Below are positions 1 to 18,171 of a stretch of DNA of 35,695 bases, one piece after another. Each line of letters opens with the position of its first letter. Positions within the stretch are counted from its first letter, which is position 1. Source of the stretch: a virus (lineage: Duplodnaviria; Caudoviricetes); the IMG/VR virus record IMGVR_UViG_3300020402_000116, positions 1 to 35,695 of that record; one strand, given 5' to 3'. Both the position numbers and the translations under genes were made by a program. The notes under the pieces are model-generated. The model searched no databases and had not been told where the DNA came from. It was given only the letters and a program-made list of their open reading frames with translations.

Positions 1-177
1 TTCTTCATCTATTGTTATGATTGTTATATCTTGCGATTGTGATACTTCTTCGTTTGCTAACATGTAGTCAAACGATTTAAGTCTTAGAGTTTCTTTAAAT
101 GAATAGTCTTGTAAACCTATAAATGTAATAACAAATAAGGTTATAAATGCTGTAGTCCAATGTGTTAAAAATTTCAT
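1..177 (-). CDS. N-terminal part of a CHASE2-domain sensor protein, truncated by the window edge (full-length relatives are often adenylate/guanylate cyclases)
   Basis: Not in the ORF track. ATG at 177 overlaps the stop of the upstream ORF (TAATG). Hand translation: MKFLTHWTTAFITLFVITFIGLQDYSFKETLRLKSFDYMLANEEVSQSQDITIITIDEE, i.e. a TM helix followed by the E-x-L-x-L-x-x-F-D ... I-x-I-I-x-I-D-E pattern that opens CHASE2 domains. Frame is open to the edge. Confidence 0.75.
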   Translation of the reverse strand, partial: MKFLTHWTTAFITLFVITFIGLQDYSFKETLRLKSFDYMLANEEVSQSQDITIITIDEE

Positions 178-542
178 TATTGATTTACTGTCATAGTACA
201 GTAGGCATGTCCACACCAATAGCTACCTGTAAAACTTTTATTATTACCAGATTGATTAATGTACATAGATGAACCATTACTATTTCTACCATCAACATCA
301 ACGTCAATGTTATTATTATTTCCAACTTGGTCTAAATCAATAATAAAACCATTCATACTTTCTATATCAAAATCAATATTATTATCTTGACCATCTTGTA
401 GAGTATTTAGAGTACCACCTGCTGATGTTGTAACAGTAATTGTTAAATCATTAGCTTGACTAGAACTATGTAATAGTATAAGAAAAAATGCTAAAGTCAT
501 TCCTATTACTGCACTAATTAATTTGTTGTATGGTGATAACAT
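177..542 (-). CDS. Secreted curlin-like (CsgA/CsgB-like) repeat protein, short
   Basis: Signal peptide ending SQA|ND. Repeats LQDGQDNNID, LDQVGNNNNID and INQSGNNKS fit the curlin Q-x-G-x-x-N pattern. C-terminal CGHAYC. GGAGGAG Shine-Dalgarno before the ATG at 542. Confidence 0.7.
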   Translation of the reverse strand: MLSPYNKLISAVIGMTLAFFLILLHSSSQANDLTITVTTSAGGTLNTLQDGQDNNIDFDIESMNGFIIDLDQVGNNNNIDVDVDGRNSNGSSMYINQSGNNKSFTGSYWCGHAYCTMTVNQ

Positions 543-1629
543 TTTCTGCTCCTCCTAATTCGAAATCATACATTTCGAATTCACTCTGTATTATATTTAG
601 GACATAACCATATTCTTTATCAAGTCTTAATTCTATGTATGAACCAGATGCATCTTCTCTAATCCATACCCATTCTGGGTCTTCATCTAATATAATAACA
701 CCAGTCTCTGGGTCTTTTCCTAAAGTTACATCGCCAGTAGTTTCTTTTTTGTCAAACTCTGATCGCATTTGTTTTGCTAATTCTTTGTTTAATTGTTTTA
801 GAATATCAACTAAAAAATTTTGTTCTAAAAAATCTATGTCAAGACCTGTTGCAAATTGACTTTCATCTTCTTCAAGATAGTCTGTTTCTAAATCATCAAA
901 TTGTAAAAAGTCAATATCTAAAGCATCTGCAACTTCATTTAGACCTTCTTCATTTTGCATTTGTTCTATCTCTGCTGGTTTAGATATGATTAATAAATTA
1001 CCAATCATCTCTTCGTCTAAATCTAGCATTACAGGTTTCATTGGTTTACTTGCAACTGTATCAACCACCGTTGCTTGAAATGCTTGGTTTAGTATTACTT
1101 GACCAGCATCTGACTCGACACTAATCTCTCCAACAAAACAATTACCATTTGTATCACAACTTGGTAATAAGATAATTGTAGATGAACCTATTTCATCTAT
1201 CGTCATTGTAAAGTCTGTACCACGAACACCAATCGTAGCTGTTGGTGTTGTTATCTGTACATTTTGTTTTGAGTTTTTTGCAATCTGACCTGAAGCATAT
1301 CTTACAGTTCCAAGTTTTGCTTTGAGTGATAATTTACCTGTTTTGGTATTTGGGTCATAGACAAACTCATCGATTACAAGTTTAGAATGTTCAGTAACAT
1401 CAACTCTGGTATTATCGATAAACTCTATACCAACTTTTCCTTTACCTGTCTTTACTGTATCGTATGAAAAAACATCTAAGTCTTTTGCGACCTCTTTACT
1501 TTCACCTTCTTTTCTATCTATTACAGCATTGCCTTCGTGTAAGGAAACTTGTCCTATCGATGCAAAACTATTTTGTAAAGATATAAGGGTTAAGAGTATG
1601 AACCCAATTGTAAAATTTACGAGCCGCAT
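514..1629 (-). CDS. FecR-domain exported protein with long acidic C-terminal region
   Basis: Signal peptide (SFA|SIG). D-x-V-x-T-G, F-x-D-x-T, G-x-V-R and TPTATIGVRGTDF motifs of the FecR domain. Confidence 0.85.
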   Translation of the reverse strand: MRLVNFTIGFILLTLISLQNSFASIGQVSLHEGNAVIDRKEGESKEVAKDLDVFSYDTVKTGKGKVGIEFIDNTRVDVTEHSKLVIDEFVYDPNTKTGKLSLKAKLGTVRYASGQIAKNSKQNVQITTPTATIGVRGTDFTMTIDEIGSSTIILLPSCDTNGNCFVGEISVESDAGQVILNQAFQATVVDTVASKPMKPVMLDLDEEMIGNLLIISKPAEIEQMQNEEGLNEVADALDIDFLQFDDLETDYLEEDESQFATGLDIDFLEQNFLVDILKQLNKELAKQMRSEFDKKETTGDVTLGKDPETGVIILDEDPEWVWIREDASGSYIELRLDKEYGYVLNIIQSEFEMYDFELGGAENVITIQQIN

Positions 1630-1672
1630 ATATTGTCAGTCCTACGAATAATATAAAAGTTATTGTACCCAT
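1568..1672 (-). CDS. Possible 34-aa single-TM microprotein overlapping the start of the FecR gene
   Basis: Hand translation MGTITFILFVGLTIYAARKFYNWVHTLNPYIFTK*. ATG lies 1 nt after the curlin-like gene stop. Hydrophobic stretch followed by RK. Confidence 0.3.
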   Translation of the reverse strand: MGTITFILFVGLTIYAARKFYNWVHTLNPYIFTK

Positions 1673-1673
1673 A

Positions 1674-2357
1674 TTAGTCTCTCTGTATAATATCGATGTT
1701 GTGGTTATCACCACTTGTTGTTAATGTTATCATATTATCATAGATACCTGATTGTGTAATATCTACATCTGCAATAGAACCCGTATGATTGTGTATGTAA
1801 GTGTGACCTGCACTATCACCATCTCCGTCTATGTCAACTAAGAAATTATTTGTGTCACCATTGACGTTTAACGTAAAGATAACACTTGTACCATCTATTG
1901 TTGCAGCCACAACGTTTGAGTCTGAACCAGACGCACCTGATATTGTTATGTTAGCACCTGTTGCATCTGCTGTTTCTCCAACATCAATGTCTAAATCGTT
2001 AGATGAACCTACCCAAATAATAGAAGCTGTTACAGTAGCACACGATGAGTTAGACCCACCACTATCACAATTAAAGTCAATGTTGTTACTGTTACCAGTT
2101 GTACTAAATGTACCTGTATATGAATTACCGTTTATATCAAAAGTTAGTACGTTAGAGTCTCCAATCTGATCGATGTTAAAATTAGATGTAGTACCTGTTA
2201 CAGTTGATGCTGTTGTACTATTACCTATTGTGTTGTTTTGACCATCTTGTAATACATCTAAAGTTAAAGTATTACCTGATTGTGTAACGTAAATATCATT
2301 TGCCAATACTGGCGAAAACATCATCAAACACATAACGAATTTAATTAATGTTTTCAT
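1674..2357 (-). CDS. Secreted curlin-like beta-solenoid protein (candidate major subunit)
   Basis: Signal peptide (VLA|ND). Many N/D/G/T/S-rich repeats such as VTQSGNT, LQDGQNNTI, IDQIGDSNVL, TTGNSNNID, VGSSNDLD, NGDTNNF, TQSGIYDN, SGDNHNID. Adjacent to csgG. Confidence 0.75.
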   Translation of the reverse strand: MKTLIKFVMCLMMFSPVLANDIYVTQSGNTLTLDVLQDGQNNTIGNSTTASTVTGTTSNFNIDQIGDSNVLTFDINGNSYTGTFSTTGNSNNIDFNCDSGGSNSSCATVTASIIWVGSSNDLDIDVGETADATGANITISGASGSDSNVVAATIDGTSVIFTLNVNGDTNNFLVDIDGDGDSAGHTYIHNHTGSIADVDITQSGIYDNMITLTTSGDNHNIDIIQRD

Positions 2358-3168
2358 GTCTTATCCCCTTAACGCCCTCCATTTTCCATAATTTTTTATT
2401 AACACCCTCATATATCATTTGTAAAACGGCGTGTTCTATTGTTGTTCTTATTGCATAATTAACAGGTTCATTTGTTGCCATACCTGATTCAAATTCTAAT
2501 GCTTTTGTACTCATATCTAAAAATCTGAATACATCGCCACCTTTGCTATAACTAGCAATTGTCTTTGTTGCTGAAACAGATAATAGTATCTCACCTGTTT
2601 GTACTGCAACAACTCTTAGTGAAACAGTTACTTGGTCTGTACGATATTGCTCATTCAATCCTAAACCAAAGTATCTTGCACCAACACCGCCACTTGCAAT
2701 GTTACTGTCATATCCTACAATACCACCTTCTATAATTAATCCAGCAAACACCAATGGTTTTAATTGATTGTTCGCTTCTGTTTCACCATCGTATAATTCT
2801 CTTGTTGATCTTATAAGTTGTCTTTCCTTAACTAGATTACTTAAACCTTTTCTTTCTACAACTTTAAACCAATCTCCGTCACTAACTGCTTTTAAAGCAG
2901 ATATAACCCAAACATCTGGTCCTTGCGTAACTGCTGTTGACAGTTGAGAAAACTTTGGATTAGGTTTTCTCTGACCAGTTTGATCTGTAAACTCGTATAC
3001 CGCAATTGTTATCTGCGGTTGATTATCTAAATCAGGTATTTCTCTTAACTTTTCTAAAGTTGTTGTTCCCTCTATAAAAGGTTCTGCACCTTTAATAGCA
3101 GGTTTCTGTTGTGTCGAGGCACAACCTGAAAGTATACCTAATAGTAATATAATCAATACTATTCTCAT
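2341..3168 (-). CDS. csgG: Curli secretion channel lipoprotein CsgG
   Basis: Lipobox LSGC. Motifs IAVYEFTDQTGQRKP, STAVTQG, WFKVVERKGLSNLVKERQLIRS, IEGGIVGYDSN, GGVGARYFG, YRTDQVTVSLR, NEPVNYA. Confidence 0.95.
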   Translation of the reverse strand: MRIVLIILLLGILSGCASTQQKPAIKGAEPFIEGTTTLEKLREIPDLDNQPQITIAVYEFTDQTGQRKPNPKFSQLSTAVTQGPDVWVISALKAVSDGDWFKVVERKGLSNLVKERQLIRSTRELYDGETEANNQLKPLVFAGLIIEGGIVGYDSNIASGGVGARYFGLGLNEQYRTDQVTVSLRVVAVQTGEILLSVSATKTIASYSKGGDVFRFLDMSTKALEFESGMATNEPVNYAIRTTIEHAVLQMIYEGVNKKLWKMEGVKGIRHENIN

Positions 3169-3178
3169 TTTTTAAATC

Positions 3179-3661
3179 CTAAAATTGAAAATCACCTAAT
3201 GGCACAGACATTGTTGTTACAGCTCCGTCTGGGCTTGTTATTGTCAAAGTAATAATCTCAGTTGTGCTATCCTTAATCCAATATATCGTTGACCCCTCAA
3301 CTTCAGCTGTACCACTGGTTGGGCATGTTGTTGTACTACTGTCGCATGTAGTACCAAACATATTATCAACTAACTGTTTAGATAAGTTAGCATATATTCT
3401 ACTTTCAACGTTTTTAATAAACTTGTTGATAGTAGTATTATTCGCTTTTCTCTCTGCGGCGGCAGCTGCAGATTTGGCATCATCTTTCACTTGTTTTTCT
3501 CTATTGTACTGCAATTGTTCAATAGATAAAACATGACTAGAGTATCCATTCCCACTAAAAGATGGGTTTTTGAACTCATGTACTAATTCTGAAGTCGTGC
3601 TTATGGTAGGCAAAAACACATAAAATAGTATCACCACAAACACTATTTTAAGTGTTTTCAT
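3179..3661 (-). CDS. csgF: Curli assembly protein CsgF
   Basis: Signal peptide then ELVHEFKNPSFSGNG (CsgF NPxFGG-like pore-binding N-terminus). Directly upstream of csgG. Confidence 0.88.
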   Translation of the reverse strand: MKTLKIVFVVILFYVFLPTISTTSELVHEFKNPSFSGNGYSSHVLSIEQLQYNREKQVKDDAKSAAAAAERKANNTTINKFIKNVESRIYANLSKQLVDNMFGTTCDSSTTTCPTSGTAEVEGSTIYWIKDSTTEIITLTITSPDGAVTTMSVPLGDFQF

Positions 3662-3666
3662 ACTAT

Positions 3667-3674
3667 TATTTATC
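3667..3674 (-). promoter_or_regulatory. T4-type late promoter candidate (GATAAATA) 5 nt before the csgF ATG
   Basis: 7/8 match to TATAAATA in an intergenic gap. No SD before csgF. Confidence 0.55.
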
Positions 3675-3709
3675 TGCTGTCAATCTTTTGACGGGTGTAA
3701 TTATTTGAC

Positions 3710-3949
3710 TTATTTGGGGGGTTTTCTTTTTAAGTCTAAAACTGTGTTAAGTTTAGACCTTAATCTGATAATATCGTTGTCTAACATTCTAATTCTGTCT
3801 AATAATCCTATTAATGCAGAGTTAGCTTCAGATAATTTTTGTTTGATATTTTCCGTTGTGAATTTATATATGAAATATATGAACCATCCCATGGCAATAG
3901 CTGCCAATGTTGCAAAACCATATTGGTTCAATATTTCTATAATTGTCAT
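3710..3949 (-). CDS. Small single-TM + coiled-coil membrane protein
   Basis: N-terminal TM (YGFATLAAIAMGWFIYFIY), then LLDRIRMLDNDIIRL. Paralogous to the neighbour. TAATG coupling. Confidence 0.8.
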   Translation of the reverse strand: MTIIEILNQYGFATLAAIAMGWFIYFIYKFTTENIKQKLSEANSALIGLLDRIRMLDNDIIRLRSKLNTVLDLKRKPPK

Positions 3950-4230
3950 TAATCTTTCCTAGCGTCTTTCTTTCCATCTGATCTTGCTATTCTATCCTCA
4001 TCTTGTCTTAAATCTAATGCATCTGAAACTTGCACATCTAACTTTAACATATCATTGTTCATGGTTTTAATTCTATTATCTAATCCCATGATAATACCAT
4101 GCATAGTATTTACTTGACTGATTACTGAATCTAAAATGTATTTGAGAATAATGTATATGAAAATACCCATGACAGCAGCTGATGCCACAGGTAATCCAAA
4201 TTCAATTAGTAACGTAAAGAATAAATCCAT
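3949..4230 (-). CDS. Small single-TM + coiled-coil membrane protein
   Basis: N-terminal TM (FGLPVASAAVMGIFIYIIL), then LDNRIKTMNNDMLKL. Paralogous to the neighbour. Confidence 0.8.
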   Translation of the reverse strand: MDLFFTLLIEFGLPVASAAVMGIFIYIILKYILDSVISQVNTMHGIIMGLDNRIKTMNNDMLKLDVQVSDALDLRQDEDRIARSDGKKDARKD

Positions 4231-4236
4231 ACAGTA

Positions 4237-4244
4237 TATTTATT
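4237..4244 (-). promoter_or_regulatory. T4-type late promoter candidate (AATAAATA) 6 nt before the ATG at 4230
   Basis: NATAAATA match at the gene junction heading the curli module. Confidence 0.45.
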
Positions 4245-4851
4245 AGAAGAGTATTGTATCTGCCTTAAATACCTCAGCATGTGGAACTTTAATAAAAGAA
4301 CCTCTAAACCTTGACATAGATTCTATATCTTCAGCCCATCTAGTCTCTACATTTTTATAACACTCTATTGCTTTCCTTTTAGATTTAACTTGCTGAGAAA
4401 TATCTACAAACACATTAGCTTCAAAACTTGTATATTTTTGACAGTAAGGAAAAGAATTCATATACCAAACCTCTAGTGGTTGTTTACGTCTTAAGGTATT
4501 ACCTACTTCATGACATATTCTATGATCTTGATGCCAGTCTTCTTTCCAATGAGTTATTAGTAGATCATAACTTGTAATGTTCAGTTGTTTCTCAATTCTT
4601 TCTATCATCTTATTATCTAGTTTAGGTCTTTCATATGATCTACCTCTTTGTCCTATAACCATATTTGCATCAAAGAATATCGGTTTAAATCCTAATATCT
4701 TAGAAGTCTCTGGTAAATATTTTTTATGATCTTGATAGGGAAAAATTATTAAGTTATCTACACTACCGCCTTGATCTACAATTTTTTTTATAGTTCCACC
4801 ACAAGATAATTCTAAATCATCTGGGTGTGCTGTCAAAACTAAAGTTTTCAT
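4243..4851 (-). CDS. PIG-L/LmbE-family N-acetylhexosamine deacetylase
   Basis: AHPDDLELSCGGT and HQDH metal-binding motifs, FVDIS, AEVF. Confidence 0.92.
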   Translation of the reverse strand: MKTLVLTAHPDDLELSCGGTIKKIVDQGGSVDNLIIFPYQDHKKYLPETSKILGFKPIFFDANMVIGQRGRSYERPKLDNKMIERIEKQLNITSYDLLITHWKEDWHQDHRICHEVGNTLRRKQPLEVWYMNSFPYCQKYTSFEANVFVDISQQVKSKRKAIECYKNVETRWAEDIESMSRFRGSFIKVPHAEVFKADTILF

Positions 4852-4852
4852 T

Positions 4853-5080
4853 TTAAAATCCTACCATTGTTCCTATTTTGCCCAATTGTTGTAAAACTAA
4901 TATTTGTAAATTTTTTAAATTTTCTGCTGATGCTGCTATCAATGAAGCGTTTTCTGATAATGCTTGCCAAAGATTATTTAAATCGTGAGTAATTGCAGCT
5001 ATCATAATTAAACATATAATTAATCCAAATGCAACAACTAAAATAAGTATTTTATCTAAGTTCATAAGTATGTTTCGCAA
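4853..5080 (-). CDS. Small membrane protein
   Basis: One long hydrophobic helix followed by a short helical region. Fills the gap between coupled genes. Confidence 0.6.
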   Translation of the reverse strand: MRNILMNLDKILILVVAFGLIICLIMIAAITHDLNNLWQALSENASLIAASAENLKNLQILVLQQLGKIGTMVGF

Positions 5081-6273
5081 CCACCTTCCCTATATGTATC
5101 TAGTGTTAGACAATGTAAACCACTATCCCAAAAGTGTCTATGTCTAAATCTAGTATATATGGGTTCTATTCCAACAGATTTTAATTTATCATGTACCTCT
5201 TTTTGGTAATTTATAGACAAGATAGTGTTTTCATTTATACTTAACATATTAACTTCAAAGATTGACTCTTCCATAAATCCAACCCAATCTTTTAAATATG
5301 TATCAACAAAATCTGTAAATGGTTTATTATTTTTTTCATTATCAACATACCAGTTCATATCTGCTTTTTTATTTTTTTTAAATTCTTCATACTCTTTTGG
5401 GTATTGTTGTTCAAAGTTATTTGGATGTTCAATAATAAGTTGGTCCCAACCAGGTAATGTATTTTCAAAGAAACCTTTTTCCATCCAAGGCGCAGCAATA
5501 ACCAAACCAGGTTTTGGTAAACACATAGAGCCATCATTGTGTCCACCAATATCAATAAGTTTAAATTTAAATTTATTATCTGGTCTAATATTATTGTACC
5601 AGTCAGCAATTCCTTTTCTATAATTACTTTGCCCCTCATCAACAAGTATTGTATCACCTATTCTAGTAATAAATGGGGCATCAAAATTCCAAGTTTCATA
5701 TACAAAGTTTCTAAAATTAACTGGGTCGTGTTTCATATTCATATCAAAGTATTCTTGTTCCGTCCACAACTCATTTTTTAATTCTTGTTCATTTGGTCTA
5801 AATGGACCTAATTTACTATCAATGTTTTTCCACGTATCTTTAACTAAAGTTAAATCAACATCAAACATATCTAAAGGATGTTTACCATCTATTACCATTT
5901 GTGGATTATATTGCTGAGTAATAAACAAATCATTACCCATGGTAATGTGGCTGTTTCTGGGTGACATAAGTGGTTTTGGTAATGCCAGAAGACCTTTTGA
6001 TTCTTTTGATTTTTCTAAAAACTCTCCAAAAGTCTTATAAGGATTTAAACCAAGACCATCTGTCCAACAGTCATCTACTAGAATAACTTCAACACCTAAA
6101 TCTTCTAGTGTTTTTTTTATGCCATCTAAATCTTCTTTTGTTTCATGCACAACTCTTTGTAACGAGTCTCTTAATTTTGTATCTTTAACATCCTCAAAAA
6201 ATTCTGGTGGAAATACATTTCCAAGAACAACTTGTTTCAAAGGTTGCCAATGAGTCCAACTATTAACTTTCAT
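5062..6273 (-). CDS. Amidinotransferase (glycine / inosamine-phosphate amidinotransferase family, pentein fold)
   Basis: VNSWTHWQPLKQVVLG N-terminus, FDAP, GHNDG, VNMLSINE and C-terminal GLHCLTLD...R carrying the catalytic Cys. Confidence 0.9.
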   Translation of the reverse strand: MKVNSWTHWQPLKQVVLGNVFPPEFFEDVKDTKLRDSLQRVVHETKEDLDGIKKTLEDLGVEVILVDDCWTDGLGLNPYKTFGEFLEKSKESKGLLALPKPLMSPRNSHITMGNDLFITQQYNPQMVIDGKHPLDMFDVDLTLVKDTWKNIDSKLGPFRPNEQELKNELWTEQEYFDMNMKHDPVNFRNFVYETWNFDAPFITRIGDTILVDEGQSNYRKGIADWYNNIRPDNKFKFKLIDIGGHNDGSMCLPKPGLVIAAPWMEKGFFENTLPGWDQLIIEHPNNFEQQYPKEYEEFKKNKKADMNWYVDNEKNNKPFTDFVDTYLKDWVGFMEESIFEVNMLSINENTILSINYQKEVHDKLKSVGIEPIYTRFRHRHFWDSGLHCLTLDTYREGGCETYL

Positions 6274-6595
6274 CTGGGTAATCTCTATATAAAAAGTGTT
6301 GGATGGTTTCTACATCTACTAATTGATTAAATGCAACATGTTTTTCATCTATACTTTTTTCATTTCTTATAATGCTTGTCATTGCATCATCTAATTGTTG
6401 CATGTTATTAAAATTCATATCAATACGAAACTCTGGTAAGTCCATAGACCTAAATCCTAATTTTGCTCTAGTTATTCTATATGAAACCATTCTATTCATT
6501 TTAACAAGACCATCTAAAAAAGGTTTCATCTTTTCTATAAATTCTTTTGCATCTATATTTTCATTGTGATCTGCGTATATTGTGTATAAGTCCAT
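6263..6595 (-). CDS. DUF6614-like small alpha/beta protein
   Basis: YRITRAKLGF, LPEFRIDM and QLDDA pattern, recalled from this family. Confidence 0.55.
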   Translation of the reverse strand: MDLYTIYADHNENIDAKEFIEKMKPFLDGLVKMNRMVSYRITRAKLGFRSMDLPEFRIDMNFNNMQQLDDAMTSIIRNEKSIDEKHVAFNQLVDVETIQHFLYRDYPDES

Positions 6596-7032
6596 TATAA
6601 AGCTCCTAACTTTTCATATCCTTTAAATTGTGATTTGTATCTGTCATCTTGTCCTAGATATAAAAATTTATATCCGTTTTGTTTTGCCCAAGCACACTCA
6701 TTTTCTAAACTCTTAATACCCAATCTTAGTTTAGGATTTTCATAATCCCATGCAAATTGTAAACTTTCTATGTTATGATTGTCAAGAGGATAGAGCATAG
6801 TAAATGCTACTAATTCATGTTTGTAATAGTATCCCATTATTTTATTTACTTTTACATCATTTTCAAATATTGGTTGGACAGACTTAAACTTTTTATAATC
6901 ACAATATTTTTTATAGATTTTTTGTAATTGTTTTAAGTTTGGTTCTTTTATTATTAAAGAATTTTCATATAAATTATAATCAGTTTTTGATAACCTAATT
7001 CGACAATATATCATCCTTATATTCCTTATCAA
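6595..7032 (-). CDS. GNAT-fold protein resembling the C-terminal domain of arginyl-tRNA-protein transferase (ATE/Bpt)
   Basis: FAWDYENPKLRLGIKSLENECAWAKQNGYKFLYLG matches the ATE_C pattern (F-x-x-D...S/RLG..S...E...AK..G..Y-x-YLG). Confidence 0.7.
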   Translation of the reverse strand: MIRNIRMIYCRIRLSKTDYNLYENSLIIKEPNLKQLQKIYKKYCDYKKFKSVQPIFENDVKVNKIMGYYYKHELVAFTMLYPLDNHNIESLQFAWDYENPKLRLGIKSLENECAWAKQNGYKFLYLGQDDRYKSQFKGYEKLGAL

Positions 7033-7465
7033 AATTTTTATAATAATCTTTAGTCTCTAAAAACTTTCTAGCCTCAGTTAGTTTTTTTCTATTCTGAACA
7101 AATAAAACTGGTTTACCAAAATTTAAATTCATACCACCAACTTCTTCTTTTAACTCTGGGTGATCTTCTAGTATAACATAATCTCTTCCTAAGTTACTTT
7201 CTAAATAATCTTTAAGTTCATATAGTTCGTCCACATTTGCATCTTGTTGAATAATCATAATTAAATCTAATTCGCCAGAATTTAATTTAGCATAATCTTC
7301 CATGAGAACAGATTTATCATATGTAACTTTTACTTTTTTATCTTTCCAAGCTTTTCTTGCATAAGGACATGGTGGTAGGTTACCAAAAATTTTATTTGGT
7401 TTAGATATTACTTCATTAATCCAATCTTCTACTTCTTTTGTCATTTGTTTGCTTTGTATGTCCAT
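6995..7465 (-). CDS. DUF1415-like protein
   Basis: W-I-x-x-V ... PCPYARKA N-terminal motif and a later DHP motif. Confidence 0.5.
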   Translation of the reverse strand: MDIQSKQMTKEVEDWINEVISKPNKIFGNLPPCPYARKAWKDKKVKVTYDKSVLMEDYAKLNSGELDLIMIIQQDANVDELYELKDYLESNLGRDYVILEDHPELKEEVGGMNLNFGKPVLFVQNRKKLTEARKFLETKDYYKNFDKEYKDDILSN

Positions 7466-8169
7466 ATTGCATCAAAATAATAATCTTGATAATTTTTGCC
7501 TGTTGCTTTATTAAATCTTTTTTCATATAATTTTTGTTTTTCTGAATCTGTTTGATGAGATTTCATACACCACTCTGCAGGTTGTAGTTTTATATTAAAC
7601 CATGGTTGTTTACGTTTAACCGTATCATAAACAAAATATTGTTCACCCTCATTTGGATGTGCGACAATACCCTCTTTATAATAGTAAGGTCTAATTGTGT
7701 TAAAGTTTGTCATATACTCTTCATATACAAACTGAAAATCATATGAATTAAACTTATACAGATTGCCGCTAATAGGCATTTCGTTGTCTTTCCACCATCT
7801 GTCCATAGAAACAAACTGGCCCATTTCTACGGGGTATGTGAGGACTGGTGATGGGTCTTTCTGCCATTGCATATCAATATCCATAATAACAGTTGTATCA
7901 TTTTGACCAGCGTTTATGTAATATGGATTAAAGAAAAATATCTTAGACCAATGTTCGTGTGTGTCTATCATGTCCTCAGACAACTTGATAAAGTTTATAT
8001 CTTTGATACCCAGATCAAACCAACCATAATATGGTTTATCAGTTGCGATATGTATTTTGTAATCTACTTTTAAATTTTCTACAATTGGTGTTAAGAAATC
8101 TTTTGTAAGTTGGTTTATTTCAAATCCTTGAACTTCAGTTCCATATTTCACTAAACATATATTAAGCAT
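7441..8169 (-). CDS. GT-A fold glycosyltransferase (GT8-like phage type)
   Basis: ICLVKYG start, IATD, HWSKIFFF, DxD motif (MDID), GEQYFV. Confidence 0.7.
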   Translation of the reverse strand: MLNICLVKYGTEVQGFEINQLTKDFLTPIVENLKVDYKIHIATDKPYYGWFDLGIKDINFIKLSEDMIDTHEHWSKIFFFNPYYINAGQNDTTVIMDIDMQWQKDPSPVLTYPVEMGQFVSMDRWWKDNEMPISGNLYKFNSYDFQFVYEEYMTNFNTIRPYYYKEGIVAHPNEGEQYFVYDTVKRKQPWFNIKLQPAEWCMKSHQTDSEKQKLYEKRFNKATGKNYQDYYFDAIWTYKANK

Positions 8170-8320
8170 AACTATTCCATACCAATTTAATCAATGCTGT
8201 AAAAAATAAAAATGTTGGTATTGATATACTAGTTTTTAGTGCGAGGATATTTCCTAATTTGAATGACCAAAATATAGTTATCCATAATAAAAGTATATTC
8301 AATAATATTATATTATTCAC
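8162..8320 (-). CDS. Small 2-TM membrane protein (52 aa)
   Basis: Not in track. GTG start; hand translation MNNIILLNILLLWITIFWSFKLGNILALKTSISIPTFLFFTALIKLVWNSYA*. Overlaps both neighbours by a few nt and fills the gap. Confidence 0.55.
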   Translation of the reverse strand: MNNIILLNILLLWITIFWSFKLGNILALKTSISIPTFLFFTALIKLVWNSYA

Positions 8321-8519
8321 TTTTCCACTTTTCCATTTCAATATTGTCGGATTGCATGTTGGCTTGTCTTTCTTTTTCGAGTCTTTCTTTCTTTGCTCTT
8401 CTTGACTCTTTCAATCCGATATCAAGTATTTTTTGATCTTTTTCTATTTCTTCTAAAAAGTCTTTGTTTTTTTCTTTTTCTTTTTTGTAATAGCTTGGAT
8501 GTTTAAATTCAAATGTCAT
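8313..8519 (-). CDS. Hypothetical charged protein
   Basis: ATGA overlap with the upstream gene. K/E-rich helix. Confidence 0.6.
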   Translation of the reverse strand: MTFEFKHPSYYKKEKEKNKDFLEEIEKDQKILDIGLKESRRAKKERLEKERQANMQSDNIEMEKWKSE

Positions 8520-8866
8520 AAGTCTTCTACGTTATTTGGTTGATGCATTTTTACAAAGTACTCTGCATCCACCAATACTAATGGTTTTGATTTATTCCTT
8601 TTTATTACAACTAATGGTTCACCTTTTTTTGCATTACCTTTTGCTTGTTCATAAGCATCCCATACATTTACTTTCTCAACATTTTTACATTCTATGCTAT
8701 ATGGGAATTTGCGTCTGGCATCTCTTGCCATAATTAAATCTTCACCACTTGCTCCCATTGATCTAGATTCAACATCTTCCTCATTAACCATTAAGTGTTC
8801 AATGAGTTGATCTCTAACCCATTGTTGAAGTCTGCGACCCTTTGCTTTCGCTGATTGTGTTTTCAT
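8516..8866 (-). CDS. Holliday-junction-resolvase-like PD-(D/E)XK nuclease
   Basis: SAKAKGR, GEDL, SIECKN, YEQA, PLVVIKRN. Confidence 0.75.
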   Translation of the reverse strand: MKTQSAKAKGRRLQQWVRDQLIEHLMVNEEDVESRSMGASGEDLIMARDARRKFPYSIECKNVEKVNVWDAYEQAKGNAKKGEPLVVIKRNKSKPLVLVDAEYFVKMHQPNNVEDL

Positions 8867-8984
8867 ATCTCGCTACCTTACATATTTCTATTTCATATTG
8901 TCTGCCGTCATAATCCTTTTCAATTCTCGTAAGAGGACCATCTCCCTCATGAATATAACCACAGTTGTTGCAATATTTAGACAT
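8814..8984 (-). CDS. Small Cys/His protein, possible zinc finger (56 aa)
   Basis: Not in track. GGAG SD; MSKYCNNCGYIHEGDGPLTRIEKDYDGRQYEIEICKVARYENTISESKGSQTSTMG*. Confidence 0.6.
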   Translation of the reverse strand: MSKYCNNCGYIHEGDGPLTRIEKDYDGRQYEIEICKVARYENTISESKGSQTSTMG

Positions 8985-9339
8985 CTACTCCAATCATGGT
9001 ATTAAGAGTTTGACCAAATGAAGTTGTTTGTTCTGGTGCCTGTGCCTTTACAAAGATACCATCAACCATTCTACCTTTTCTATGTTTAATATCGTTGTAT
9101 GCTGTCTCTAAACATTCTTCCATTGTTATTTTATTACGTGCCATTATGTTTATCATAACAACTAGCATATCACCCAAATCATCTTTCATATCTTTACCTT
9201 TACATACACTATCACTTAACTCACCAAGTTCTTGTTGTAGTTTTAAGACTTGATCTTTATCTGTGCTACCATCTATTAAGTTTCTATCTTTATGCCATTG
9301 GCAAATTTTTTCTATTAGTGGGTTGTTTTCATATTTCAT
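8977..9339 (-). CDS. MazG-like all-alpha NTP pyrophosphohydrolase
   Basis: KLQQELGEL, DDLGDMLVV, CLETAYNDIKHRKGRMVDGIFVK. Confidence 0.85.
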   Translation of the reverse strand: MKYENNPLIEKICQWHKDRNLIDGSTDKDQVLKLQQELGELSDSVCKGKDMKDDLGDMLVVMINIMARNKITMEECLETAYNDIKHRKGRMVDGIFVKAQAPEQTTSFGQTLNTMIGVDV

Positions 9340-9348
9340 TTTACTCTC

Positions 9349-9579
9349 CTAATGATATGCTTCTAAAAATGTTTCTAATTGGTCGTATCCACCAATATGT
9401 TTATCGTCTATAAAAATTTGTGGCATAGTTCTTGCGTTGGGTACTAACTTTAACATTTCTTGTATATCATGACCCTCTGCTATATTTTTTTCTTCAAACT
9501 CTATACCTTTATTATTTAAAAGTGATTTTGCTTTGACACAATAACCACACATAGGTTTACTCCATACTATCGCTTTCAT
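9349..9579 (-). CDS. grxC: Glutaredoxin
   Basis: CGYC active site, RTMPQIF, IGGY. True start is probably MKAIVW at 9579 (AAGGAG SD) rather than 9645. Confidence 0.9.
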   Translation of the reverse strand: MKAIVWSKPMCGYCVKAKSLLNNKGIEFEEKNIAEGHDIQEMLKLVPNARTMPQIFIDDKHIGGYDQLETFLEAYH

Positions 9580-10219
9580 CTCGCTCCTTTTCTTTGTAGA
9601 AGTAGTTATCGTCATCACCGAATGCCCACTTTCTCTCTTGTTCACATGTAAAGTATCTAGTTGATACTTTAAAATCTGGTCTCTTTAATTCTGCTGGTGT
9701 GCTTGATTGTTCGTACCATAACATTCTATTATTTGGTTGTGCAAAGAATTGGCCATTTTCTAATTTACCAAAATTAAATTGTTTATGTTCTTCTGGCACC
9801 TCTGATAGATTTAAGTTAGTGGTATTTAAATCACTATGACAACTATCGATAGAGAATAGATACTCACCTTTCATACGTCCACCACCTTTTAACATTATAT
9901 CCACATCACAATTTGCTAGTAATACTTTTTTCCAAACTTGTATCTCATAACTAAATGCATCCCATAACTCTAACACATCTAAAGGTAATTGTTCACTTTC
10001 AATTATATCTTTCTTCCACACAAATGCTGACAATGGAAACTTATCAAAACAAGCACCATACTCTGGTAGATATGCTTCAAAGTATAATGCTCGTCCTTGA
10101 ATTGATTTAACTGCTATGATCGTTGCATCAACAAACTCGCCATGACCATCTTCTAAGTCTCGTAAGTATTCTTTTCTTACGTAACATTTAATATGTGGTA
10201 AGTTTGCTACAAAGTTCAT
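9557..10219 (-). CDS. Conserved phage hypothetical protein
   Basis: 220-aa ORF coupled to neighbours. Motifs VRKEYL...HGEF, WDAFSY, NGQFFAQPNNR. No function recognised. Confidence 0.75.
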   Translation of the reverse strand: MNFVANLPHIKCYVRKEYLRDLEDGHGEFVDATIIAVKSIQGRALYFEAYLPEYGACFDKFPLSAFVWKKDIIESEQLPLDVLELWDAFSYEIQVWKKVLLANCDVDIMLKGGGRMKGEYLFSIDSCHSDLNTTNLNLSEVPEEHKQFNFGKLENGQFFAQPNNRMLWYEQSSTPAELKRPDFKVSTRYFTCEQERKWAFGDDDNYFYKEKERDESDSME

Positions 10220-10222
10220 AAG

Positions 10223-10375
10223 CTATTCCTCTTCCTCATCTATATTGTAATCTAAATCAGTAATCTCTTCGCCACAAAATGGACAATACCTTGGTGAGTA
10301 TAAGTCATCATCCATTTCATAAGAAACGGTATAACTTGCATCACAATGATTACACAATATAGTTTTTTTAGCCAT
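10223..10375 (-). CDS. Zinc-ribbon protein (50 aa) with acidic tail
   Basis: Not in track. MAKKTILCNHCDASYTVSYEMDDDLYSPRYCPFCGEEITDLDYNIDEEEE*, with two CxxC pairs. Confidence 0.8.
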   Translation of the reverse strand: MAKKTILCNHCDASYTVSYEMDDDLYSPRYCPFCGEEITDLDYNIDEEEE

Positions 10376-11678
10376 TTACTACCTCATCGGGTCCGTCAAG
10401 TGGCGATGAATATAATGATTCTTCGTCTTCGTCATATGCATCATCCCAATCACCACTCATACCAGCAACTTCATATTCTGTAACTCTGTTTTCAAAGAAG
10501 TTAGTATGGTCAGCTGCATTTAGAATCCACTCCAACCATGGTATAGGATTCTCTTTTACTTTAAAGTTAGTTTTTAGTCCTAGTTGTAAAAGTCTTCTAT
10601 CTGCTATGTATCTGATATATTGTTTTACATCTTTTTTAGGAAGACCTTCTATGTCGCCCATCTTGTAAGCAAGATCAATAAACTTATCCTCTAGTTCTAC
10701 AATCTTTGTTGACATTTCATATATTTTCTTTTTAAAATCATTGTCAACTATTCTAGCGTTCTCCGAACAGTATGCTCTAAACAAATGAGCAATACCTTCA
10801 ACGTGCATAGACTCATCTCTTACAGACCATTCTACAATCTTACCACAACCTTTCATTTTACCAAATCTTTGAAAGTTTAACAACATTATGAATGATGCAA
10901 ATAAAGATACACCTTCATTGAATACAGATTTTGCTAGAGCAAGTCCTAAACCTTTTTTAGTAGTTACATCTGAATCCATCATGTAATCTACTTTGTCGGC
11001 CATTTCTTTGTATTCTAAAAAAGCATGAAACTCTTCGTCTGGTAATCCAAGAGTTTCATTTAATAGTGCGTATGCTCTTTGGTGTATACCTTCTCTGCTT
11101 GCAAACGAACCAAGCATATTTCTTACTTCGTTATTTTTAAATTTAGGGATAAATTGATCGTAATAGTTTTGACCTACTGCTACGTCTGATTGAGTAAATA
11201 ATCTTAAAACGTTAGTAACAAAATCTTTTTCGGTAGCTGTCATACGTCCACCTTTCCAATCTGTTACGTCCTCAGATAAATCAACTTCGTCCTCAATCCA
11301 ATGAACCTTTTCGTGTTTGACTACCATATCGACCGCCCACGGAAAATAGAAAGGTTTGTATGCTTCACTAAATCTAGTTAAACTACCACCTCGTCTTTTT
11401 AAAATCTTTTCTGAATTTTCTAACAGTCCAGCATATCCACCAATACGTTCTCCATTAACAAAAATCTGTGGTACAGAAGCAACTAATCTTACATCTTGTT
11501 TTGCAGATTCGCTTCTCTGTAATTGTTCTTGCGTATCATTTACTCTTTGATAGAATTCTAATTTTTCTTCCTCTGAAGCCAATTGATGTTCAACATAATC
11601 AATACCATGTTCATTAAACCAATTCTTTGCCTGTACACAATAACCACAGGTAGGTGTCGTATAAATTTGTACGTCCAT
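10368..11678 (-). CDS. nrdB: Ribonucleotide reductase class Ia beta subunit with N-terminal glutaredoxin fusion
   Basis: N-terminal TCGYC / VPQIF / IGGY glutaredoxin. Di-iron ligands and radical Tyr in FTQSD, REGIHQRAY, NEG, RDESMH. NFFE...Y tail. Confidence 0.95.
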   Translation of the reverse strand: MDVQIYTTPTCGYCVQAKNWFNEHGIDYVEHQLASEEEKLEFYQRVNDTQEQLQRSESAKQDVRLVASVPQIFVNGERIGGYAGLLENSEKILKRRGGSLTRFSEAYKPFYFPWAVDMVVKHEKVHWIEDEVDLSEDVTDWKGGRMTATEKDFVTNVLRLFTQSDVAVGQNYYDQFIPKFKNNEVRNMLGSFASREGIHQRAYALLNETLGLPDEEFHAFLEYKEMADKVDYMMDSDVTTKKGLGLALAKSVFNEGVSLFASFIMLLNFQRFGKMKGCGKIVEWSVRDESMHVEGIAHLFRAYCSENARIVDNDFKKKIYEMSTKIVELEDKFIDLAYKMGDIEGLPKKDVKQYIRYIADRRLLQLGLKTNFKVKENPIPWLEWILNAADHTNFFENRVTEYEVAGMSGDWDDAYDEDEESLYSSPLDGPDEVVNG

Positions 11679-16978: not shown

Positions 16979-17452
16979 CTACCATTTCCTTTTTGCTGAG
17001 CTTTTAATTGCACTCCAACCAAACAATCTTACCGCATAGTAAGCTGACCATTTTTTCCAACTTGCTACTTTAGGTTCTGCAGCTTCCATACCATGTAGGA
17101 AAACTGTATCAGCGATTGCTCTCATTGTTGCAAACTCTGTTTTTTTAACTTTTTTTCTTACGGCGTTTAATTTTTCATACATTACATCGTGACAAATAGC
17201 TGCTCTTGCAACATCAAATGGTGCAATAAAAGCCCAAGCTGCTCTTGGAACTGAAGCCATATCTGTAATATAACCTTTAGGTACAGTTAATGTATCCTTA
17301 TTCCATTTAAGATCAACTTTGTGTTTCTTAAATAAAGCAATCTCATTTTCAAATAAATCGGTTTTAAAAGTCAAAGACTTAGTAAGTTTCCACTTATTAG
17401 GTCTTTTAAATTGACTTGACATCAATCCGTTAAATTTACTCTTCTTTGCCAT
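16979..17452 (-). CDS. DUF1353 family protein
   Basis: TVPKGYITDMASVPR, AAICHDVMY, ADTVF, YYAVRLFG. Start probably MAKK at 17452. Confidence 0.85.
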   Translation of the reverse strand: MAKKSKFNGLMSSQFKRPNKWKLTKSLTFKTDLFENEIALFKKHKVDLKWNKDTLTVPKGYITDMASVPRAAWAFIAPFDVARAAICHDVMYEKLNAVRKKVKKTEFATMRAIADTVFLHGMEAAEPKVASWKKWSAYYAVRLFGWSAIKSSAKRKW

Positions 17453-17843
17453 CTTCTTCTTTACTCTCTTCCTCACCATTTGGTGAAACTGCTTTCTCAT
17501 AGTATAAAATCAACTTTTGATTTTGTTCTAAGTATCTTTTTATATCTGCCATATTGAGAGCCATCGCCTCATATCCTCTGACAGATATTGCATAGAATAC
17601 CCATTGTTCGCCGTGTTCTTTCTTGTATTTAGTAATAAATTCATCGAAGTTTGCCTCTGTTACCACATACCATTCAACATTTTGCATACTTAGGGGTTTA
17701 GGATGTGGTTGTAAAGGAATAACTTTCTCAATATATTCAGTCTTTACAACTGTTTTTGCAGGCATTTTAAACGTACTACAATTAGTTAGTAGTAGTGTTA
17801 CCAGTAAGAGACTCAAAACTTTCAAAAAGTTTTTTAGTTCCAT
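17436..17843 (-). CDS. Outer-membrane spanin (Rz1-like lipoprotein)
   Basis: Lipobox LTNC and Pro-rich segment. Overlaps the 3' end of the upstream TM/coiled-coil gene. Confidence 0.72.
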   Translation of the reverse strand: MELKNFLKVLSLLLVTLLLTNCSTFKMPAKTVVKTEYIEKVIPLQPHPKPLSMQNVEWYVVTEANFDEFITKYKKEHGEQWVFYAISVRGYEAMALNMADIKRYLEQNQKLILYYEKAVSPNGEEESKEEDGKEE

Positions 17844-18171
17844 TGTTTATCCTTTTTTCGATTAGACCAGGTTTTTTCAAAGATAATCTAGTCAAATCAT
17901 GTTTTTGTAATTTATTAATTAATTCGTCTTTATACTTAGTTGCCTCTGCCAACTCTAATTGCAACTCACCAGATAACTTACTCATCTTCTCGTTATCTGC
18001 TTGTAATTGATTTATAGTATTTTGATTAGTTTCTGCAACTAGCTCTAGTTTTGCGTTACTGTCTTGTAGAATTGCAATTTTATTTTGAGTGGTATCGTAG
18101 TAATATTTCGCACCAAAACCAATTGCACCTACGATACCAATTACTAATATTATGCCATATATTTTAAACAT
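17782..18171 (-). CDS. Inner-membrane spanin (Rz-like)
   Basis: N-terminal TM then a long coiled coil, overlapping a lipoprotein gene. Confidence 0.72.
   Translation of the reverse strand: MFKIYGIILVIGIVGAIGFGAKYYYDTTQNKIAILQDSNAKLELVAETNQNTINQLQADNEKMSKLSGELQLELAEATKYKDELINKLQKHDLTRLSLKKPGLIEKRINNGTKKLFESFESLTGNTTTN

What the first reader, a model, noticed from the sequence alone, without database searches (positions are those of the whole stretch)
1..4230. Phage-encoded curli-type secretion module coupled to a FecR protein and a CHASE2 sensor: candidate trans-envelope signalling system
Seen: one tightly packed run of two TM proteins, csgF, csgG, curlin-like (227 aa), FecR-domain, curlin-like (121 aa) and a TM-CHASE2 start, with overlapping or near-adjacent stops and starts. 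Established: CsgG/CsgF form the curli outer-membrane channel, and FecR-domain genes often sit beside CHASE2 cyclases/kinases in bacterial signalling loci. From memory, csgF/csgG have been reported in marine SAR11/OM43-type myophages, so the pore alone is not new. Inference: the module is a complete pore + substrates + periplasmic relay + inner-membrane sensor. The infected cell could export an amyloid-like fibre (aggregation, contact sensing, superinfection shield) and convert its state into a cytoplasmic signal such as cAMP/cGMP. No CsgE/CsgC/CsgD was recognised.
Basis: partly seen in the sequence, partly recalled or inferred. Interest (0 to 1): 0.9.

Follow-up and report, generated by a model that had tools for sequence, protein, structure and literature searches.

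The report
Phage curli pore with tethered sensor
A marine T4-like phage carries an intact copy of an already published gene block (curli-type outer-membrane pore, two curlin-like proteins, a FecR-like protein and a membrane enzyme predicted to make cAMP); the FecR-like protein likely sits in the pore as a tether that would link a short surface filament to that enzyme, an untested mechanism for a block whose job is still open.

Summary
Observation confirmed. All eight genes lie at the stated places. A 99.96% identical viral contig shows that the edge gene is a 612-aa CHASE2 plus class III cyclase with all catalytic residues, followed by phage genes, so this is no chimera. The block is already published (Wittmers 2022; same order in HTVC008M, 64-83% identical), and this scan noted it before (80 findings, at least 77 other genomes).

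What the tests add on mechanism: (1) The FecR-like protein has a front domain homologous to the periplasmic plug of pore-anchored adhesins (PDB 5IX9), an acidic linker of about 100 aa, and a curlin-type last strand (111 of 112 relatives versus 10 of 663 other ORFs). (2) A complex prediction gives only weak support for its docking on curlin 1. (3) Curlin 1 has a fixed length (208 aa in 49 of 49); curlin 2 varies from 117 to 497 aa. (4) The published 'histidine kinases' are small membrane proteins without kinase domains. (5) Late-promoter motifs head the operon.

Best reading: a pore-anchored, short filament read by a cyclase (about 0.45). No cAMP receptor was found in the phages and in 184 of 201 SAR11-family genomes, so the output is unexplained.

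The parts
4237..4243 (-). T4-type late-promoter-like motif ATAAATA, 6 nt before the TM1 start codon
   Evidence: 8 of 9 such minus-strand motifs in the window lie within 45 nt upstream of an ORF start; the 'late promoter' label is recalled T4 knowledge
3949..4230 (-). TM1, 93-aa membrane protein with a coiled-coil-like tail; sits where the published 'histidine kinase' sits, but has no kinase domain
   Evidence: (phrog_18771); 67% identical to the HTVC008M gene at this position
3710..3949 (-). TM2, 79-aa paralogue of TM1
   Evidence: (same PHROG); 64% identical to the HTVC008M gene; below the hydropathy threshold used
3667..3673 (-). late-promoter-like motif ATAAATA, 5 nt before csgF
   Evidence: present before csgF in 53 of 54 distinct upstream regions of the close clade, before csgG in 0 of 60, and in 0 of 55 csgF regions of the distant clade
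3179..3661 (-). CsgF homologue, 160 aa
   Evidence: PF10614 E 1.2e-12
2341..3168 (-). CsgG homologue, 275 aa, outer-membrane pore lipoprotein
   Evidence: PF03783 E 1.3e-53; lipobox-like Cys in 115 of 115 relatives
1674..2357 (-). curlin 1, 227 aa, predicted beta-solenoid of fixed length with open ends
   Evidence: AF2 pLDDT 88.9; best match CsgA 8C50, Z 17.5, rmsd 8.7, 186 aligned, 25% id, tied with SufB-like beta-helices; mature length 208 aa in 49 of 49
514..1629 (-). FecR-domain protein, 371 aa: signal-peptide-like start, FecR/retention-plug domain (about 1021-1560), acidic linker (about 700-1020), small beta domain ending in a curlin-type strand (about 517-699)
177..542 (-). curlin 2, 121 aa, minimal form of a hypervariable gene, with a C-terminal cysteine pair and no accessory domain
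   Evidence: relatives carry PA14 or other N-terminal domains
1..177 (-). first 59 codons of a 612-aa CHASE2 class III (adenylate-type) cyclase; the rest is in L001:10992-12830

Best explanation
The window holds an intact copy of the published pelagiphage 'viral curli' gene block, which likely builds, late in infection, a short pore-anchored surface filament whose FecR-like tether would report its state to a membrane cyclase predicted to make cAMP. Shown: gene content and order, conservation, intact cyclase residues, the three-part anatomy of the FecR-like protein, and homology of its front domain to a known periplasmic plug. Inferred steps: (1) CsgG and CsgF form the outer-membrane pore. (2) The FecR-like protein is exported to the periplasm; its C-terminal end goes out through CsgG while the folded front domain stays inside as a plug, with the acidic linker in the pore. 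(3) Its last strand docks head-to-tail on curlin 1, which docks on curlin 2, whose cysteine-paired end closes the stack and whose optional front domain (PA14 in some relatives, none here) sets what the tip binds. (4) The retained FecR domain touches CHASE2 and switches cAMP synthesis when the filament is completed, pulled or bound. (5) cAMP acts through a receptor that is not a CRP-type protein, most plausibly to tune late infection such as lysis timing; this last step is a guess (about 0.2 on its own).
For: Core genes co-occur in two distant clades: 58 of 58, 20 of 21, 70 of 70 and 56 of 56 loci with room. All seven class III catalytic positions are kept in 79-80 of 80 distinct cyclases, with Lys in 80 and Ser/Thr in 79 at the ATP-selecting sites. 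AF2 gives two confident domains joined by a low-confidence linker. The front domain matches the PupR signalling domain (Z 15.6, rmsd 2.4, 131 aligned) and PDB 5IX9 (Z 11.2, rmsd 2.0, 72 of 76 residues, 24% id); 5IX9 is also the only PDB sequence found by the family profile at E<=1 (E 0.00096). 5IX9 is the domain proposed to plug the TolC pore and hold the adhesin MpIBP (PMC5550230, passages); deleting the like module releases LapA (10.1101/198937, passages). The linker has a median of 104 aa and net charge -8 in 89 relatives, -21 here. The protein ends in hydrophobic-x-hydrophobic-x-Gln in 111 of 112 locus proteins and 79 of 94 distant representatives, against 10 of 663 other ORFs; Q346 is nearly invariant. 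Curlins stack head-to-tail through such open edges (PMC10192328 section 9). Complex prediction of the C-domain with curlin 1: weak support, score 0.41 against best control 0.00; the mark was reached by 116 of 157 solved and 2 of 215 mismatched pairs, but at 0.60 or under by only 18 solved pairs and both mismatches; runs agree in at least 43% of contacts, partner pLDDT at least 74. Curlin 1 is 208 aa in 49 of 49; curlin 2 is 117-497 aa. A C-terminal Cys pair is absent from curlin 1 where a second curlin follows (0 of 49; second Cys curlin in 28 of 29 loci) and present in 59 of 59 in the other clade. Among 77 bacterial loci of FecR relatives, 15 of the 16 with CHASE2 also hold an outer-membrane export gene, against 25 of 61 without. 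In S. meliloti, CHASE2 cyclases are switched on through an outer-membrane barrel (PMC13001267, PMC7529298, passages).
Against: No contact is measured. The complex score is in the range the tool calls more often wrong than right unless the guess was likely beforehand, and stacked curlins are solved, so the pass may reflect likeness. Profile-profile comparison of the FecR family with curlin 1 is not significant (E 0.044, 9 columns), so the curlin likeness is one strand. The FecR-CHASE2 contact was not tested. In E. coli the imperfect C-terminal repeat of CsgB binds CsgF, so the cysteine end of curlin 2 could be the base and the FecR protein the outer cap. The Cys-pair pattern rests on two clades, hence about one evolutionary event, and some loci (L083-L085) carry two Cys-paired curlins. 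The bacterial count is biased: 7 of the 12 barrel-plus-CHASE2 loci are SAR11 single-cell genomes, and 3 of 4 profile seeds came from CHASE2 loci. No cNMP-binding domain in the window, in 2 complete relatives, or in 184 of 201 SAR11-family genomes. Wittmers et al. report that FecR and the cyclase are not always present in curli regions. The host of this phage is not established.
Confidence: 0.45

Rival explanations
1. Bulk curli export. Infected cells secrete long amyloid fibres that clump neighbours ('sibling capture') or shield against superinfection; FecR and the cyclase only regulate the system.
For: Pore, CsgF and solenoid subunits are all present; PA14 domains on curlin 2 of relatives suit adhesion; proposed in PMC7029224 and PMC9599517.
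Against: Curlin 1 has one fixed length (49 of 49) and only 2.9% Gln; the subunit genes lie mid-operon without a promoter motif of their own (0 of 92); no clumping was seen in Melnitz cultures (PMC9004378), although Melnitz encodes both curlins.
Confidence: 0.2
2. Assembly monitor. The FecR-like protein is exported completely as the outer cap of the stack; CHASE2 senses the copies left in the periplasm, so cAMP reports whether the pore is working or blocked, not outside contact.
For: The E. coli polarity places an imperfect C-terminal repeat on CsgF; folded accessory domains such as PA14 must pass the pore in relatives; all co-occurrence data fit equally.
Against: The front domain is homologous to a plug proposed to be too large to pass its pore; a conserved linker of about 100 aa has no clear use in a cap.
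Confidence: 0.17
3. Repurposed pore. CsgGF serves for lysis timing (pinholin or secretin-like) or nutrient and iron uptake; the other genes are accessories.
For: Proposed in PMC9004378 and, for uptake, in PMC9599517; late-promoter motifs; two small holin-sized membrane proteins lead the operon.
Against: That proposal assumed no curlin genes, but curlin, FecR and cyclase genes follow csgG in Melnitz itself and in nearly all loci; the window has its own Rz-like spanin pair at 17436-18171; no TonB receptor or ECF sigma hit among the ORFs scanned.
Confidence: 0.1
4. Interference with a host system. The phage FecR protein or cyclase cross-talks with the host's own CHASE2 / barrel / FecR system.
For: 34 of 201 SAR11-family genomes have a CHASE2 gene; in L170 it is CHASE2-SpoIIE beside a DUF2860-like barrel and a FecR protein; 9 of 10 fetched loci have FecR or barrel next door.
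Against: 167 of 201 genomes show no CHASE2; phage CHASE2 domains are only 27-29% identical to the SAR11 ones and form their own branch in a 31-row tree; the phage block is complete on its own.
Confidence: 0.08

Closest known systems
Pelagiphage viral T8SS (curli) region: Wittmers et al. 2022 (PMC9599517); earlier Zaragoza-Solas et al. 2020 (PMC7029224); HTVC008M KC465899 6900-13807; Melnitz MZ577097 50118-56876
   Same: Same genes in the same order: one or two small genes, CsgF, CsgG, curlin, FecR, second curlin, cyclase. Identity to HTVC008M is 64-83% for seven of eight genes.
   Different: Curlin 2 is the minimal 121-aa form (441 aa with PA14 in HTVC008M). The block sits between RNR/MazG genes and S21/RNase H, and the primase is only 46% identical to that of HTVC008M, which fits transfer of the block between distant myophages. 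The paper's main text has no mention of CHASE2, reads FecR as an iron regulator and calls the small genes histidine kinases.
Enterobacterial curli / type VIII secretion (csgBAC-csgDEFG)
   Same: CsgG and CsgF homologues; beta-solenoid subunits with signal-peptide-like starts.
   Different: No CsgE, CsgC or CsgD hit; degenerate repeats; FecR and CHASE2 genes attached. 0 of 7 alphaproteobacterial csgF loci had FecR or CHASE2 within 15-18 kb, and 0 of 77 bacterial FecR-relative loci had csg genes.
Retention module of type I-secreted adhesins (MpIBP RIN, PDB 5IX9; LapA)
   Same: Homologous N-terminal beta domain followed by a flexible linker and an outer part.
   Different: Here the route would be Sec plus CsgG, not ABC/HlyD/TolC; the protein is 371 aa, and its outer part is a small beta domain with a curlin-type end.
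CHASE2 cyclase signalling across the envelope (S. meliloti CyaD1/D2/K with NsrA and Clr; Campylobacterota CHASE2 cyclase-FecR-TPR clusters)
   Same: CHASE2 class III cyclase beside FecR-domain and outer-membrane genes.
   Different: Outer-membrane part is a curli pore, not a TPR barrel; no CRP-type receptor found in the phages searched.
FecR/PupR anti-sigma cell-surface signalling
   Same: Same periplasmic fold (PupR 6OVM, Z 15.6).
   Different: No cytoplasmic anti-sigma domain ahead of the hydrophobic start, no ECF sigma or TonB receptor in the block.

Membership tests
Pelagiphage viral T8SS region (Wittmers 2022) | CsgF, CsgG and a curlin gene in conserved order in a phage | tested here: met
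Pelagiphage viral T8SS region (Wittmers 2022) | followed by FecR, often a second curlin and an adenylate cyclase | tested here: met
   (cyclase completed from L001)
Pelagiphage viral T8SS region (Wittmers 2022) | preceded by one or two small genes (called HK there) | tested here: met
   TM1 and TM2 are 67% and 64% identical to the HTVC008M genes at this position; I did not see the paper's own sequences or supplements
Pelagiphage viral T8SS region (Wittmers 2022) | host is Pelagibacter (SAR11) | tested here: inconclusive
   block 64-83% like HTVC008M, but primase at most 49% (Melnitz, OM43 host) and S21 at most 44% (Mosig) like cultured phages
Histidine kinase (for TM1/TM2) | His-bearing dimerisation domain and ATPase domain | tested here: not met
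   162 distinct relatives are 57-121 aa and 81 have no His at all; no invariant His; no kinase family among Pfam hits of 33 members at E<=0.05
Canonical bacterial curli (T8SS) | CsgG pore and CsgF | tested here: met
Canonical bacterial curli (T8SS) | subunits with curlin repeats | tested here: inconclusive
   no PF07012 hit for the two window proteins; hits in relatives; solenoid model with CsgA as tied best match
Canonical bacterial curli (T8SS) | CsgE gate in the operon | tested here: not met
   no CsgE hit among 30 ORFs; all eight genes are assigned otherwise
Canonical bacterial curli (T8SS) | forms extracellular amyloid fibres | not testable with these tools
   needs expression and imaging
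Class III adenylate cyclase | two metal Asp, transition-state Asn and Arg, ATP-selecting Lys and Ser/Thr/Asp | tested here: met
   D428, D476, N553, R557, K472, S546, K599; kept in 79-80 of 80; closest solved sequences are bacterial adenylate cyclases; residue roles are recalled class III knowledge
Class III adenylate cyclase | measured cAMP synthesis | not testable with these tools
   needs an assay
Adhesin retention module (RIN/LapA RM) | N-terminal domain homologous to RIN | tested here: met
Adhesin retention module (RIN/LapA RM) | secreted by a type I system | tested here: not met
   no ABC, HlyD or TolC gene in the block; lowers 'is a T1SS adhesin', not 'works like one'
Adhesin retention module (RIN/LapA RM) | domain retained in the periplasm with the linker in the pore | not testable with these tools
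   linker length and disorder fit; topology needs an experiment
FecR/PupR anti-sigma system | cytoplasmic anti-sigma domain, ECF sigma and TonB receptor | tested here: not met
   FecR domain starts right after an N-terminal hydrophobic stretch; no such partner hit (window is 24% of the genome)
S. meliloti-type CHASE2 cyclase pathway | CRP-family cAMP receptor | tested here: inconclusive
   PF00027 in 0 of 2 complete related phages and 17 of 201 SAR11-family genomes; host unknown and genomes may be incomplete

The most novel reading that the evidence does not exclude
Ocean phages have rebuilt the curli amyloid pore into a fixed-length, pore-anchored antenna: a FecR-fold plug stays in the periplasm, threads CsgG, starts a two- or three-subunit curlin stack with a swappable tip, and switches a CHASE2 cyclase. 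It would be one case of a general bacterial design, a retained FecR-fold plug read by a CHASE2 enzyme, that runs on three unrelated pores (TolC, Slam-like barrel, CsgG), and it would imply a cAMP receptor of unknown type in infected SAR11-like cells.
Probability: 0.3. Interest if true: 0.8.

Novelty: already known. Interest (0 to 1): 0.35.

Why it matters
The block is widespread in ocean phages (found at all 65 stations in PMC9599517) and has no tested function. The gene block itself is not news. The tether model turns three loose published guesses (aggregation, uptake, lysis pore) into specific tests on topology, stack order and cyclase control. It also corrects two labels: the small genes are not histidine kinases, and the FecR protein is more likely structural than an iron regulator. 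If true, it would show a virus installing its own surface sensor in the host envelope, and would suggest what CHASE2 domains read.

Tried and rejected
Chimera: rejected; phage genes flank the block on both sides. Histidine-kinase label for TM1/TM2: rejected. A BhlA-like holin identity (recalled resemblance) was not supported: no such Pfam hit; the Atlas gave only unnamed viral clusters and a sub-threshold YvrJ lead at 0.88. Cellular origin of the whole block: not found. The two genome-contig hits with the full block (L163, L164) and two SAR11-family hits (L256, L257) have the phage gene order and are probably phage contigs in bins; only 7 bacterial csgF loci were examined. Foldseek gave no match at E<=0.001 for curlin 1, and its profile found no curlin in PDB sequences. 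The FecR C-domain had no usable Atlas hit and no fold match above Z 3.9 within the whole-protein search; it was not folded alone. Promoter scans over the whole window were not above chance (TATAAATA 2 vs 5.9 expected; ATAAATA-N6-ATG 1 vs 0.53); the case rests on position and conservation. Expression: 11 marine RNA runs held 5-11% of the words; contigs of four runs covered pieces of the block, but no silent control was laid, so transcription is not shown. The TolC profile failed to build, so type I systems were counted by HlyD/HlyB only. Protein searches returned only close copies among the rows listed. The NsrA paper (PMC5952392) is not held, so its domain layout was not checked. Literature searches for CHASE2+FecR+curli and FecR+'retention module'+'adenylate cyclase' found 0 papers; pelagiphage+'adenylate cyclase'+curli from 2022 found only PMC9599517; one search added nothing. 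The library lacks most subscription papers, and no supplements were read, so CHASE2 or a topology model may appear in Wittmers' figures or data sets.

Full report
1. Observation. The eight ORFs are on the minus strand at the stated places. Pfam confirms CsgG (E 1.3e-53), CsgF (1.2e-12) and FecR (5.2e-10); the 58-aa edge fragment gives a weak CHASE2 hit (E 0.0089). Four junctions overlap and three are gaps of 10-48 nt. An IMG/VR contig (L001) is 99.955% identical over window 1-11168 and runs on. It completes the edge gene as 612 aa with CHASE2 (1.1e-37) and a class III cyclase domain (1.4e-19), then S21, T4 RNase H and DUF6433. Upstream lie RNR, primase, spanins and structural genes. The record is a linear virus fragment, 24% complete. 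The two window curlins have no Pfam curlin hit.

2. Prior art. PMC9599517 (passages; section 9; supplements not read) describes CsgF, CsgG and CsgA/B preceded by one or two 'histidine kinases' and followed by FecR, often a second curlin and an adenylate cyclase, in podo- and myophages of SAR11. It reports expression in metatranscriptomes and proposes aggregation, superinfection defence or uptake. PMC7029224 (passages) first reported the operon; PMC9004378 (passages) proposed a lysis pore and saw no clumping. HTVC008M and Melnitz have the same order. Seven of eight window proteins are 64-83% identical to HTVC008M, while the primase is 46%. The scan itself holds 80 earlier findings of this block in at least 77 genomes, some already naming a tether. 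These notes are leads, not support.

3. Conservation. Set A is the best 80 of 208 CsgG-anchored viral loci; set B is the best 80 of 497 loci anchored on a distant FecR relative, about 39% identical. Counting only loci long enough to show the gene: in set A, FecR 58 of 58 (22 dropped) and CHASE2 20 of 21 (59 dropped; the miss, L080, has a large insertion); in set B, CHASE2-cyclase 70 of 70 (10 dropped) and curlin, CsgG and CsgF 56 of 56 (24 dropped). Many loci are near-copies, so this is two clades, not 160 events. Set B mostly lacks the second curlin; 46 of 77 loci have a gap between FecR and cyclase, filled mostly by an unrelated 120-180-aa protein. The core is therefore CsgF, CsgG, one curlin, FecR and cyclase.

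4. Cyclase. D428, D476, K472, R557 and K599 are kept in 80 of 80 distinct complete proteins, N553 in 79, and Ser or Thr at 546 in 79. By recalled class III rules this is an active, ATP-using enzyme. Hydrophobic segments lie at 4-22, 301-335 and 354-377, placing CHASE2 in the periplasm.

5. The FecR-like protein. AF2 on a 98-row alignment gives mean pLDDT 88.5, with a beta domain at mature residues 1-180, a poorly defined linker and a six-strand domain at 288-346. The front domain matches PupR (Z 15.6, rmsd 2.4, 131 aligned), BDI_1681 (Z 13.8) and 5IX9 (Z 11.2, rmsd 2.0, 72 of 76 residues, 24% id); the next row is Z 5.4. The family profile finds 5IX9 alone in PDB sequences (E 0.00096). 5IX9 is RIN of MpIBP, described as too large to pass TolC and so holding the adhesin in the pore (PMC5550230, passages); the like module of LapA is needed for surface retention (10.1101/198937, passages). 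The linker is 64-129 aa (5-95%), median 104, and acidic (89 rows). The C-terminus ends in hydrophobic-x-hydrophobic-x-Gln in 111 of 112 distinct locus proteins and 79 of 94 representatives of at least 295 aa (56 shorter ones of the 150 listed were dropped), against 10 of 663 other ORFs, 0 of 115 CsgG and 5 of 84 cyclases. This is the strand type that forms the open edge of curlins (PMC10192328 section 9). Against this, profile-profile comparison with curlin 1 is not significant. The complex of the C-domain with curlin 1 scored 0.41 against a best control of 0.00: weak support. The mark was reached by 116 of 157 solved and 2 of 215 mismatched pairs, but at 0.60 or under by only 18 solved pairs and both mismatches; runs agreed in at least 43% of contacts, partner pLDDT at least 74; no interface was given. 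Curlin stacks are solved, so likeness may contribute.

6. The curlins. Curlin 1 folds as a beta-solenoid (pLDDT 88.9). Its best match is CsgA 8C50 (Z 17.5, rmsd 8.7, 186 aligned, 25% id), tied with a SufB-like beta-helix (Z 17.3). Its mature length is 208 aa in 49 of 49 distinct set A proteins; curlin 2 runs from 117 to 497 aa in 27, and 8 of them are the minimal 117-127 aa form seen here. Long forms carry PA14 or other N-terminal domains. A C-terminal Cys pair is absent from curlin 1 in set A (0 of 49), where a Cys-paired second curlin follows in 28 of 29 loci, and is present in 59 of 59 in set B. I read it as a stack terminator, but it is a two-clade pattern, L083-L085 hold two Cys-paired curlins, and in curlin 2 one more strand follows the pair.

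7. Small membrane proteins. The 162 distinct relatives are 57-121 aa and half have no histidine; the alignment has no invariant His and Pfam shows no kinase family. They are not histidine kinases. Their job is open; a role with the cyclase in the inner membrane or as holin-like proteins is inference.

8. Timing. ATAAATA lies 6 nt before TM1 and 5 nt before csgF. It precedes csgF in 53 of 54 set A regions, TM genes in 40 of 113, csgG, curlin and FecR genes in 0 of 60, 92 and 54, cyclases in 1 of 27, and csgF in 0 of 55 set B regions. This suggests one late operon from csgF to the cyclase (the motif's meaning is recalled from T4).

9. Bacteria. Of 79 loci kept from 189 FecR relatives in genome contigs, two are the phage block in bins. 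Of the other 77, none has csg genes and 16 have CHASE2. Fifteen of those 16 also hold a TPR/Slam/DUF2860-like barrel (12) or a type I secretion gene (3), against 25 of 61 without CHASE2; the biases are given in the Against line. Conversely, 0 of 7 alphaproteobacterial csgF loci have FecR or CHASE2 nearby (8 hits in 401 genomes, one under cut-off and not fetched). Papers give the same pairing: CHASE2 cyclases with FecR-domain and TPR genes in Campylobacterota (PMC9239204, passages), a FecR-domain gene at the S. meliloti cyaD1/clr locus (PMC5498481, passages; locus link recalled), LysM-FecR with a CHASE2 kinase in Burkholderia (PMC5192318, passages), and activation through the barrel NsrA (PMC13001267, PMC7529298, passages). 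In 201 SAR11-family genomes CHASE2 occurs in 34, cNMP-binding domains in 17 and CsgG in 3. Of the 34, 31 are frames of 659-731 aa; the output domain was checked in one relative (SpoIIE, L170). Phage CHASE2 domains form one side of a well-supported branch against 16 bacterial ones.

10. Mechanism. The most likely design is a plug-linker-filament tether in the CsgG pore, read by the CHASE2 cyclase (0.45). Rivals are bulk curli (0.2), an assembly monitor with the FecR protein as outer cap (0.17), a repurposed pore (0.1) and cross-talk with a host system (0.08). The weakest link is the output: no cNMP-binding domain in the window, in two complete relatives or in most SAR11-family genomes.

11. Verdict. 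Real, intact and already known as a gene block; function untested. Interest 0.35. The tether reading did not appear in the searches, but this scan has proposed it before on other DNA. If shown (probability about 0.3 for the full case), it would deserve about 0.8.

Noticed in passing
window 4243-7465 (-): Run of five unusual genes just upstream: PIG-L deacetylase (202 aa), a 403-aa protein with weak C-terminal similarity to amidinotransferases (E 1.5e-4 to 1e-2), DUF6614, an arginyl-tRNA-protein transferase C-terminal-like protein (ATE_C, E 8e-6) and a 156-aa unknown. Possibly an arginine-using modification pathway.
   Followed up: partly
window 17436-18171 (-): Overlapping Rz-like spanin pair (PHROGs 812 and 739) next to a DUF1353 gene: a lysis module separate from the curli block.
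   Followed up: no
window 10368-11678 (-): Ribonucleotide reductase small subunit with an N-terminal glutaredoxin fusion.
   Followed up: no
L018:5739-6482, L032, L034: A signal-peptide-bearing SoxY-SoxZ fusion (PF13501, PF08770) is inserted between the FecR gene and curlin 2 in three loci.
   Followed up: partly
set B loci, e.g. L083:8031-8411, L115:7995-8474: An exported-looking 120-180-aa family with an E-x-N-P motif often sits between FecR and the cyclase where curlin 2 is missing; no Pfam hit for two members.
   Followed up: partly
L170:4551-10822 and other SAR11 genomes: SAR11's own CHASE2-SpoIIE, barrel, FecR and GAF-SpoIIE cluster, between rodA and prepilin-peptidase-like genes; CHASE2 in 34 of 201 family genomes. 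In L170 and L174 the FecR gene is split by a stop after about 190 aa, whereas it is 493 aa in L202.
   Followed up: partly
L182:4312-12729: FecR-headed 692-aa protein converging on a CHASE2 cyclase, HlyD, ABC transporter and TolC: the same plug-plus-CHASE2 pairing on a type I secretion system.
   Followed up: partly
L056, L060, L062, L064, L066, L067, L070, L075, L077, L080 after FecR; L137, L142: Small very basic proteins (K/R-rich, 96-220 aa) are inserted between FecR and curlin 2 or the cyclase in several loci; L080 has a 6-kb insertion there.
   Followed up: no
GenBank OR851715 (hit H7): A 1.5-kb record filed as a Salmonella phage holds a CsgG 42% identical to this one; probably host DNA.
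   Followed up: no
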